From Antedon mediterranea (taxonomy: Eukaryota > Animalia > Echinodermata): 64,000 nt of DNA. Each line of letters opens with the position of its first letter. Position 1 is the first letter of the stretch. Below the pieces are notes generated by a model. It saw only the letters and a list, made by a program, of their open reading frames with translations. It made no database searches and was not told the origin of the DNA. Shown piece by piece: positions 47,250-50,200 of this stretch. The stretch spans positions 1,208,201 through 1,272,200 of the forward strand of contig NC_092679.1 of assembly GCF_964355755.1 (NCBI RefSeq). The letters are read 5' to 3'. A program made the position numbers and the translations under genes.

Positions 47250-50200
47250 GTAGGCATTTAAATTGATTAGGCTTATTATACGAGTCGTACAGGTAAAAAA
47301 CAGGTTTAAAAACTGATTTATTGAGTTAGAGAGGCTGTATAAACATACGGTTACATTTTGGGAATACAATACTGTCAATAATAGACTCACTGCAACAGTG
47401 CAATGATGATCAATTTATTTATTGTTTATTTATTGACATTTTAAAATGTAATTATCAAAGGGTATTATTATGCTACATAAGCGTTATCAAAAATATTGTG
47501 TGTAATGCATGATGGGAAGGAAATATATTATAATAATATTTAATAATAATATAACCTAGGCCTAATAAAAAAAGTTTTTATTAAATTCTGTGGTGCTGTT
47601 GCTTCTAATTCCTTCCAATCATGCATCAGGCACGCTATTTGCGATAAACCTTAATAAGCCTTTAATACAAGTAGTATTTAAGAAATGAATAGACTGCCCT
47701 CAATATTAAGAGGAGGTCCCTGAATTAAGTTTGGTGCCGTTTGTCTCATTAACATAAGAGGATGATGCGGTCTTGAGTCCCACACACACACATAACTTAC
47801 TCACCAAGAAGATGGCAGCTACAGATGAAGTAGACGTCCAGAAGCGAGGCCAGATTAGCGTGCGGCATATAGCTCAGTTGGATGATGTGGTAGCATTTAA
47901 AGACACATTTAATCGCCATCTTCATTGTTCGCTGGTAAAAGATCGGAATGTTGCGACATCTCGGGATTTCTTTATGGCCCTTGCTCATACAGTGCATGAT
48001 CATTTGGTTGGAAGATGGATTCGTACTCAACAACATTATTATGAACATGACCCTAAGGTTTGTTATTAATTTGTTGAACCTTATTGTTATAAAAATCATG
48101 TGTGTGAGAAGGTCTGAGATAATATGCCTTTAAATGCTTGTGTTAATCTCATAATATTGTGTAATTGTGTAAAATAAATATGTAAAACATTTTTGCAGAC
48201 ATTTTTTTTAATGAACATATTTGTTAAATAAATAAATAAATCCCTGATGATAAATCTTCTTTTGTAAATAAATTTGTCTTTCACATAATTACAAATTAAT
48301 AAAAATACAAATGAAGCAAATAAATTATACTATTATAGGCCTATAGTATTTTATTTTATTCAAACTCATTCAACAGCGGGAAACCCGCCCCTTACAGAAT
48401 GGAATAAACTTTAACATATAAATATATATAAATCTTAAAATCTAACAATACAAAATTATAGAATTTTACTAATTTTATTACAAAAACAATTATAACGGTC
48501 AAAAAAGAGATCAATAGAATTATCTTTAACAACACAATTATTAAAAAGAAGACAAATACTTGAGATAAATCCATTCTTGGTAACATTAACACGACAATAC
48601 GGCACATAAAGAAGATTACATTTGGAATTACGAGTACGACAACCAACAGCTTACTTGTAATACACATTTTACACATACCCTGTCCTGTACTATTTATTGG
48701 TATCCACAGTTGTTGCTAAATAATTCACTCCGGCGTCTTGCTAAGAAACTTCTCACTAATGAAATCTGTCTGATAATATATGTATAGGTATGTAGCGTGG
48801 TAACTAATTAACCTATAGTTTGCCAACTACTACTGCTCGCATTGACTGTGTTGCCATTTGCTGTATCTTATTGCCGTTTATTTACGAATAGTTTTTGGAT
48901 GAAATTTCCAATCGAAATGCTAATTTCTTTCACAATATTCAATGAATGTTTCTGTTTTTGTTGTAAACTTCAATCAATTTGTTTTCAATTACCACAGGAC
49001 TTCTTGTTTACGAAAGAGCTTCAATGTCTATTTAGAACCCCACACATTTTTTGTCAAAACAAATAAATAAAATTGAAAAGAAATAAAATACTACAAAGAT
49101 AAAGGCTAACGTAAAATAAATATGTGTTAACCGGGCTAGTTAAAAACTTAATCTGTAATCTCAGTTTTAAATGATTTAATGCAGATTCATCGATTTTCTA
49201 TAGTTTAGTGTTTGAAGGTTGAACAGGATTGTTATTATTATTTCAACTTGATTAGGCAACAATGACAGTTATGGAATGCACTGTCATGTATAGGAAGTGG
49301 AATATTTCCAGGTACAGTAGATCCTATTTGCTTCCGTGCTTACTCACTGTCATTCCTGGATTCTACTACTACCTTTCGCAAAACATGGCCGACAAAGATG
49401 TCTTACTATGTCACGATCGGTTTAGCCGCCAAGTATCCTTGCAGGGTTTTGCGCAAGAAGAAGACATCGCGGAAATGAAATCCGCATTCAATCGGCATTT
49501 GCACTATTCACTAATGAAAGATCGTAACACCGGTACAAAGGTTGATTTCTATTTGGCGTTGGCGAATACAGTTTTTGACAGTATGGCCGGGCGTTGGATA
49601 CGTACCCTGCAACATTATGACGTACAAGACCCTAAGGTATTGCTGATGTTTCAATTACAATCTGTTTAATCATGGAGAAATAAGTTATCAAACAGGGCCG
49701 GAAGTTATGCCACAGATAGTTAATATCAATTTTTAATCATAAGATTTGTTAAATTTTGGTGAATAATTGTTATGTACCAAAATGTAATGTAACATAACAT
49801 AGAATACATCATAATATTATATAACTTGCTTAATGCTGTATTTTATCAATTGTGACTTATGCTATGCTTCAGTGCACAATGAATTGGTTTATAATTTTAC
49901 CAGGGACGTATAATTCCCTGTTTCTACATACATTATGACATATTACTTTTTACATTATTATTATTTTTACATTATTATTCGTAGTAAAATATCCATTGGC
50001 CATCGTTATGATACACATGATTGAACATCAGATAAAATGTGAACTTTATATAATGTCACTTGCATCAAAGGTTATAGTTCAAATAGTTTTGAGGTCATTC
50101 TGCATTGATTAAAATACCATAGTTGACTTTCTTGCAGTTACAATATAATGTACGATATGTGATGTACATATTATGTATTTCTTTACATTATATTCTTATC

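What the first reader, a model, noticed from the sequence alone, without database searches (positions are those of the whole stretch)
49385..49636. Exon 1C has altered AMP-site and kinase-recognition residues: predicted AMP-insensitive isozyme
Seen, aligned to rabbit muscle numbering: KDRNVAT->KDRNTGT (V45T), [10 protein letters not shown]>[10 protein letters not shown] (Q71L, Y75D), TVRDH->TVFDS (R60F), RKQISVRG->SRQVSLQG (R10S, R16Q). Ser14, R43 and R69 are retained. Established: Y75 stacks on the AMP adenine, Q71 and V45' line the nucleotide site, R43'/R69 bind Ser14-phosphate, and basic residues around Ser14 aid phosphorylase kinase. Inference: 1C keeps the phospho-switch but loses AMP activation (liver-like behaviour) and may prefer a different kinase.
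Basis: partly seen in the sequence, partly recalled or inferred. Interest (0 to 1): 0.72.

Follow-up and report, generated by a model that had tools for sequence, protein, structure and literature searches.

The report
Feather-star phosphorylase with rewired control exon
A feather-star glycogen phosphorylase gene carries three tandem copies of its first exon, and the third copy, also present in a second feather-star family, has replaced three residues lining the AMP pocket while keeping the phosphorylation site, so it likely makes an AMP-insensitive, phosphorylation-controlled form of the enzyme.

Summary
The window holds a crinoid (Antedon) glycogen phosphorylase gene with three tandem exon-1 copies (1A, 1B, 1C), each coding the regulatory head (residues 1-80) and ending in frame with exon 2. 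All listed 1C substitutions are real. 1C is not a decaying copy: Anneissia japonica, of another family, has three RefSeq isoforms with one identical body, and its 1C form shares 19 of the 28 changes that separate 1C from 1A, among them R16Q, V45T, R49V, R60F and Y75D. Q71 is invariant in 215 of 215 non-crinoid heads but is L or V in 1C. Ser14, Arg43 and Arg69 stay. Loss of AMP activation is a reasonable, untested inference. Against it: AMP-site changes are not enriched over the general remodelling (P 0.16), and the phosphate subsite is intact. 'Liver-like' holds only as behaviour, since human liver enzyme keeps V45, Q71 and Y75. A kinase switch is weakly supported: phosphorylase-kinase scores fall but stay high, CaMKII rises, AMPK falls. 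Splicing of 1C in Antedon itself was not shown. Verdict: a new variant of a known enzyme, with isozyme-like heads made by exon duplication.

The parts
47004..47249 (+). Exon 1A coding part (82 codons), canonical regulatory head; V45, Q71, Y75, R16 kept
   Evidence: Identical to the head of Antedon mediterranea XP_071962151.1; a contig of run X1 starts at 46974 and joins this exon to exon 2 across a GT..AG gap
47812..48057 (+). Exon 1B coding part (82 codons), mildly diverged head; AMP-site residues and R16 kept, G17H in both crinoids
   Evidence: Identical to the head of XP_071962152.1; ortholog in Anneissia isoform X3
49385..49636 (+). Exon 1C coding part (84 codons), strongly remodelled regulatory head
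   Evidence: Open frame, A at -3 and G at +4 of the ATG, AAG|GT donor in phase 0; 64 of 84 residues identical to the head of Anneissia isoform X1, XP_033110888.1, same length
49421..49450 (+). 1C phosphorylation segment, positions -5 to +4 around Ser14 (Ser codon 49436-49438; R16Q codon 49442-49444)
   Evidence: Read from the sequence; scored with kinase matrices
49514..49543 (+). 1C cap loop region, residues 40-49: V40M, V45T, A46G, R49V; K41, D42, R43, N44, T47 kept
   Evidence: cap' 35-46 and helix 2 47-78 as delimited in PMC10116597
49574..49624 (+). 1C helix-2 segment, residues 60-76: R60F, H62S, V64A, Q71L (49607-49609), Y75D (49619-49621); W67, I68, R69, Q72 kept
51065..51166 (+). Exon 2, first shared exon (starts at Arg81, phase 0)
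   Evidence: Acceptor ttcag|CGG; joints in run X1
51065..58178 (+). Shared multi-exon body of the phosphorylase, with Y155, R193, D227, R242, R309, R310 and the PLP lysine K680 intact
   Evidence: tblastn of P0005 maps the body along this stretch; motif positions fit an offset of 2; Pfam PF00343 for the Anneissia 1C isoform

Best explanation
This crinoid glycogen phosphorylase gene has three tandem first exons, and exon 1C, conserved in two feather-star families, likely encodes a head that is no longer switched on by AMP but is still switched on by Ser14 phosphorylation. Shown: three in-frame exon-1 copies on one body; the 1C substitutions; their sharing with Anneissia; retention of S14, R43 and R69. 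Inferred: choice of start exon gives three enzymes with one catalytic body. In 1C, Y75D removes the ring that stacks on the adenine and puts a negative charge there, while Q71L/V and V45T reshape the rest of the pocket. V40M and the changes across cap and helix 2 probably alter glucose-6-phosphate and ATP inhibition too, since these bind the same site. Phosphorylase kinase probably still acts on Ser14, less well after loss of the +2 arginine; CaMKII-type kinases may gain access.
For: Three heads, one identical 771-residue body in Anneissia RefSeq isoforms X1-X3, and two in Antedon. 19 of 28 positions where both 1C differ from both 1A are identical between the two species. The 14 of 72 differences between the two 1C fall at family-variable sites (mean conservation 0.72 against 0.90, P 0.003). 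Synonymous sites between window copies are saturated (pS 0.72-1.02) while dN is 0.15-0.39 and the frame is intact. Tree: the six crinoid heads form one side of a branch (92/89), with a long 1C stem and short tips of 0.23 and 0.21. Of 37 positions at least 94% conserved, both 1C change 7 (one, Y51F, is shared by all crinoid heads), and 3 line the AMP site. Y75 stacks on the AMP base (PMC9331883, passages; PMC9081730, figure legend). V45, Q71 and Y75 line the AMP-type allosteric site in a docking model built on a liver-enzyme structure (PMC13661043, passages). Q71 stays in 43 of 43 and Y75 in 42 of 43 further animal loci that reach the position (44 examined).
Against: No activity data. AMP-site residues are not significantly enriched among 1C changes: 3 of 7 at conserved sites (P 0.16) and 3 of 8 site residues against 28 of 72 overall (P 0.67). 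D42, N44, W67, I68 and Q72 and the phosphate-binding R242, R309 and R310 are intact, so weak AMP binding may remain. Human liver enzyme responds poorly to AMP with V45, Q71 and Y75 intact, so these residues alone do not predict the response. 1C evolves faster than its sisters (58 of 72 identical between species, against 70 for 1A and 62 for 1B), which fits relaxed constraint as well. The protein cluster holds Antedon 1A and 1B isoforms but no Antedon 1C isoform (5 of 5 members read). Only one ortholog was found, and it is an annotation model whose read support I could not inspect.
Confidence: 0.57

Rival explanations
1. 1C still responds to AMP, with lower affinity or changed cooperativity; the head retunes the enzyme rather than removing the AMP input.
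For: Phosphate subsite R242/R309/R310 and D42, N44, W67, Q72 are kept. Vertebrate isozymes differ in AMP cooperativity with a conserved site (PMC12267944, passages).
Against: Three site-lining residues change together, and none of the three 1C residues occurs in 215 other heads; an aspartate replaces the stacking tyrosine.
Confidence: 0.17
2. The whole dimer-interface switch of 1C is rewired: the resting balance between active and inactive states is shifted, or the pocket reads a different metabolite, so that 'phosphorylation-only' is the wrong description.
For: Shared 1C changes extend over cap, helix 2 and the central cavity (V40M, A46G, R49V, R60F, H62S, V64A). R60 is an indole-site residue, V40 contacts glucose-6-phosphate, and segments 38-70 are stabilised on activation.
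Against: S14, R43 and R69 and an R-Q-x-S motif are fixed in both species, which argues that the phosphorylation switch is still used.
Confidence: 0.14
3. 1C is a rarely used exon under relaxed constraint, without a distinct regulatory role, or is no longer spliced in Antedon.
For: Faster divergence than 1A and 1B; no Antedon 1C isoform among 5 of 5 cluster members.
Against: Same length and open frame in two families, 19 shared derived residues, differences confined to variable sites, intact start context and donor.
Confidence: 0.12
4. Add-on to the best explanation: Ser14 of 1C has been handed from phosphorylase kinase to a CaMKII- or MAPKAPK-type kinase.
For: Both 1C gain F at -5 and R at -3 (0 of 215 other heads have both) and lose R at +2, worth -2.4 to -2.5 log2 for phosphorylase kinase. 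CAMK2A scores rise by 1.7 and 0.8 log2.
Against: Net phosphorylase-kinase scores fall only 0.3-2.0 log2 and stay at the 98.4-99.7th percentile. MAPKAPK2 changes in opposite directions in the two species (+1.3, -0.2), PKA is unchanged, AMPK falls by 0.9. Human matrices, 8 of the atlas's kinases, random-peptide background.
Confidence: 0.25

Closest known systems
Vertebrate glycogen phosphorylase isozymes PYGM, PYGB, PYGL (GT35, Pfam PF00343)
   Same: Same fold family, Ser14 site and nucleotide site; three forms that differ in the regulatory head
   Different: Vertebrates use three genes (PMC9081730); here three first exons share one identical body. No vertebrate row seen has Q71L/V or Y75D.
Human liver glycogen phosphorylase
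   Same: Predicted behaviour: controlled mainly by phosphorylation (PMC12267944)
   Different: Liver enzyme keeps V45, R60, Q71, Y75 and R16; 1C would reach the same behaviour by changing the pocket itself.
Yeast glycogen phosphorylase Gph1
   Same: Not activated by AMP, activated by phosphorylation (PMC12267944)
   Different: Uses a threonine site and another kinase; 1C keeps the animal Ser14, R43, R69 arrangement.
Tandem duplicated alternative first exons (general mechanism; recalled, no call)
   Same: Homologous start exons spliced to a common body
   Different: Not found described for glycogen phosphorylase in the searches run; here the duplicated unit is exactly the 80-residue allosteric head.

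Membership tests
Animal glycogen phosphorylase (GT35) | Phosphorylase domain with PLP lysine K680 | tested here: met
   PF00343 at 1112 bits for the Anneissia 1C isoform; K680 motif in the Antedon body, which maps to the window
Animal glycogen phosphorylase (GT35) | Ser14 with Arg43 and Arg69 (their role as phosphate contacts is recalled, not read in a paper here) | tested here: met
   Kept in both 1C exons
AMP-activated (muscle/brain-type) phosphorylase | Intact base and ribose subsites: D42, N44, V45, W67, Q71, Q72, Y75 | tested here: not met
   V45T, Q71L/V and Y75D in both 1C; D42, N44, W67, Q72 kept
AMP-activated (muscle/brain-type) phosphorylase | Phosphate subsite R242, R309, R310 | tested here: met
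   Present in the shared body
AMP-activated (muscle/brain-type) phosphorylase | Measured activation of the dephospho-enzyme by AMP | not testable with these tools
   Needs an enzyme assay
Liver-type phosphorylase (PYGL) | Separate gene with canonical AMP-site residues | tested here: not met
   1C is an exon of the same gene as 1A and 1B, and differs from liver enzyme at V45, R60, Q71, Y75
Phosphorylase kinase substrate | Basic at -3, hydrophobic at +1, basic at +2 | tested here: inconclusive
   -3 and +1 met, +2 lost; net score lower but still high
AMPK substrate | Good score on the AMPK specificity matrix | tested here: not met
   1C scores 0.9 log2 below 1A, about the 90th percentile
Functional alternative first exon | Start codon, donor in phase with exon 2, open frame, conserved ortholog | tested here: met
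Functional alternative first exon | Spliced 1C-to-exon-2 junction in RNA | tested here: inconclusive
   Annotated as an isoform in Anneissia; the contigs of the one RNA-like run cannot decide

The most novel reading that the evidence does not exclude
Crinoids rebuilt the vertebrate-style phosphorylase isozyme set inside one gene: a switch of start exon swaps the 80-residue allosteric head, and head 1C has abolished the nucleotide sensor (AMP, ATP, glucose-6-phosphate) and moved Ser14 to a calcium- or stress-activated kinase, giving a purely signal-driven glycogen phosphorylase.
Probability: 0.2. Interest if true: 0.7.

Novelty: new variant of a known kind. Interest (0 to 1): 0.52.

Why it matters
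Glycogen phosphorylase is the textbook allosteric enzyme. Here evolution supplies three regulatory heads on an identical catalytic body, a ready-made controlled experiment on how residues 1-80 set the response to AMP and to phosphorylation. One head replaces residues (Q71, Y75, V45, R16, R49) that are otherwise nearly invariant in the animal sequences sampled. It would also be a case of isozyme-like diversity reached by exon duplication rather than gene duplication. The scope is narrow: two feather stars so far, and no assay.

Tried and rejected
RNA evidence: no listed run is on record as RNA. Run X1 behaves as RNA (spliced contig 1A to exon 2 to exon 3). Its contigs over 1B (47855-48124) and 1C (49388-49693) run on into the intron and show no junction; the annotated 1B behaves the same, and about a quarter of the intron (824 of 3317 bases in the listed pieces) is covered as well, so this says nothing on 1C use. 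More 1C orthologs: none in the longer-protein search (the Anneissia form is hidden as a cluster member), the near-length search with both 1C heads, the best 150 of 340 representative hits (top identity 59%), or 44 metagenome loci (top identity 60%). None of those 44 loci shows a second exon-1 copy, but most are short or transcripts. No further decayed copy in the window. My own idea that 1C became an AMPK substrate was rejected by the matrix score. AlphaFold model of the Anneissia 1C isoform: mean pLDDT 63, under 50 for residues 1-170 including shared parts, so uninformative; no fold search or complex job was run. No whole genome is held, so other phosphorylase genes and the crinoid kinases could not be checked. 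Primary structure papers were not held. Earlier scan findings: nothing. The protein atlas did not answer.

Full report
What the locus is. The window is AT-rich animal DNA. A tblastn with the finding's translation gives three hits on the + strand: 47040-47249, 47851-48057 and 49385-49636. They are three copies of glycogen phosphorylase exon 1: 1A (47004-47249), 1B (47812-48057) and 1C (49385-49636). Each has A at -3 and G at +4 of its ATG and ends AAG|GT in phase 0; exon 2 starts at 51065 with Arg81, and the body runs to the stop at 58178. 1A and 1B are identical to the heads of Antedon mediterranea isoforms X1 and X2, so the window is this feather star or a very close relative. The intron after Lys80 is old: 28 of 44 other loci show GT right after that codon, 14 read on as transcripts, 2 do not reach it. 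The duplicated unit is thus exactly the regulatory head.

Observation check. 1C aligns to PDB chains with an offset of 4. R10S, R16Q, V45T, R60F, Q71L and Y75D are right, and S14, R43 and R69 are kept. Of 288 proteins held, 8 crinoid rows were set aside, and gapped or duplicate rows dropped, leaving 215 distinct heads. In these Q71 is 215 of 215, Y75 207, V45 206, R16 212 and R49 204, and none has the 1C residue at any of these five positions. The sample consists of top hits and so leans to canonical sequences.

Is 1C real? Anneissia japonica (Comatulidae; Antedon is Antedonidae) has three RefSeq isoforms with one identical 771-residue body and three heads. Isoform X1 (855 aa) has an 84-residue head, 64 of 84 identical to 1C. 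Over residues 9-80 both 1C differ from both 1A at 28 of 72 positions, and 19 of these are identical in the two species. The 14 differences between the two 1C sit at variable sites (P 0.003; 205 rows after dropping 3 gapped proteins and duplicates). Synonymous sites among the window's copies are saturated while the frames stay open. A 23-row tree puts the six crinoid heads on one side of a branch (92/89, not starred), with a long 1C stem and short tips (midpoint root, for drawing only). This fits duplication within crinoids, a burst of change in 1C, then conservation. Against: 1C diverges faster than 1A and 1B (58, 70 and 62 of 72 identical), no Antedon 1C isoform is among the 5 of 5 cluster members, and only one ortholog was found. 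That RefSeq isoform models usually rest on transcript evidence is recalled; I did not see the support for this one. In run X1 a contig joins 1A to exons 2 and 3; it cannot decide on 1C.

AMP site. Y75 stacks on the AMP base (PMC9331883, passages; PMC9081730, passages). N44, V45, W67, Q71 and Y75 line the site in a docking model on a liver-enzyme template (PMC13661043, passages). ATP and glucose-6-phosphate share the site (PMC12267944, passages), and V40 contacts the latter (PMC10116597, passages and section 16). Both 1C change V40, V45, Q71 and Y75, and keep D42, N44, W67, I68 and Q72; R242, R309 and R310 in the body are intact. Loss or strong weakening of AMP activation is the likeliest reading, but it is inference. 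The enrichment of AMP-site residues among the changes is not significant (P 0.16 at 37 conserved sites; P 0.67 overall); the 8-residue site list was drawn from those papers. The head is remodelled as a whole, including R49V, R60F (an indole-site residue), H62S and V64A. Human liver enzyme keeps V45, Q71 and Y75, so 1C is not liver-type in sequence.

Kinase site. I scored the Ser14 peptides with 8 human kinase matrices typed from supplementary file 3 of PMC9876800 (rows read; main text not read; position sums checked), against 200,000 random peptides of phosphorylase composition. From 1A to 1C, in Antedon and Anneissia: PHKG1 -2.0 and -1.5 log2, PHKG2 -2.0 and -0.3, still the 98.4-99.7th percentile; CAMK2A +1.7 and +0.8; CAMK1G -0.2 and +0.8; MAPKAPK2 +1.3 and -0.2; MAPKAPK3 +0.9 and +0.1; PKACA unchanged; AMPKA1 -0.9 in both. 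R16Q costs about 2.5 log2 for phosphorylase kinase, partly offset by K11R and I18F. A shift of preference is possible; a clean handover is not shown, and AMPK is disfavoured. That R43 and R69 bind the Ser14 phosphate is recalled.

Mechanism. Shown: three compatible start exons, one body, conserved 1C residues. Inferred: choice of start exon yields 1A (canonical), 1B (mild variant) and 1C (nucleotide site detuned, Ser14 switch kept). Tissue and physiological role are unknown. Confidence 0.57.

Comparison and novelty. The enzyme is an ordinary GT35 phosphorylase. The isoforms exist as automatic RefSeq models. Searches for a description found none: 'glycogen phosphorylase' with 'crinoid' gave 0 papers; with 'echinoderm', 'isoform' and 'exon' 6 of 6 unrelated by listing; with 'alternative first exon', 'isoforms', 'invertebrate' none relevant among 20 listed of 199. 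The library lacks most subscription papers, and the primary structural and chimera papers were not held (Crerar 1995 and Hudson 1993 seen as reference titles only; the chimera search found nothing relevant). I rate it a new variant of a known kind, interest 0.52.

Noticed in passing
window 47812-48057 (+): Exon 1B keeps the AMP-site residues but has G17H in both crinoids and a changed -3 or -2 residue (K11G in Antedon, Q12E in Anneissia); it scores lower than 1A for all 8 kinases tested.
   Followed up: partly
window 24727-25857 (-): Intronless 377-codon frame with several hydrophobic stretches and no Pfam hit at E 1; by eye it resembles a gustatory-receptor-like membrane protein (recalled, untested).
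   Followed up: partly
window 376-756 and 8105-8437 (+): Two IFI6/IFI27-like (PF06140) gene pieces, with a similar fragment near 2767-3024.
   Followed up: no
window 11928-16105 (+): MAP-kinase-phosphatase-like gene: rhodanese domain plus dual-specificity phosphatase domain.
   Followed up: no
window 28721-33711 (+): Run of SRCR-domain exons (PF00530 confirmed for one of them), apparently one membrane protein.
   Followed up: no
window 38019-38270 and 43547-43807 (+): Two GDSL-lipase exons, phospholipase-B1-like, in tandem genes or repeats.
   Followed up: no
window 51527-51660 and 52002-52135: Two copies of a very high-copy short element with inverted ends in the introns on either side of one phosphorylase exon; looks like a MITE.
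   Followed up: no
P0077/P0141 and P0113/P0143: Lingula and Priapulus phosphorylase isoform pairs differ in one internal block (about residues 286-331 and 221-256), suggesting mutually exclusive internal exons; the Lingula block spans the R309/R310 helix.
   Followed up: no
window 49262-49286 (+): Three in-frame ATGs lie upstream of the 1C start; the Anneissia model starts at the position matching 49385.
   Followed up: partly
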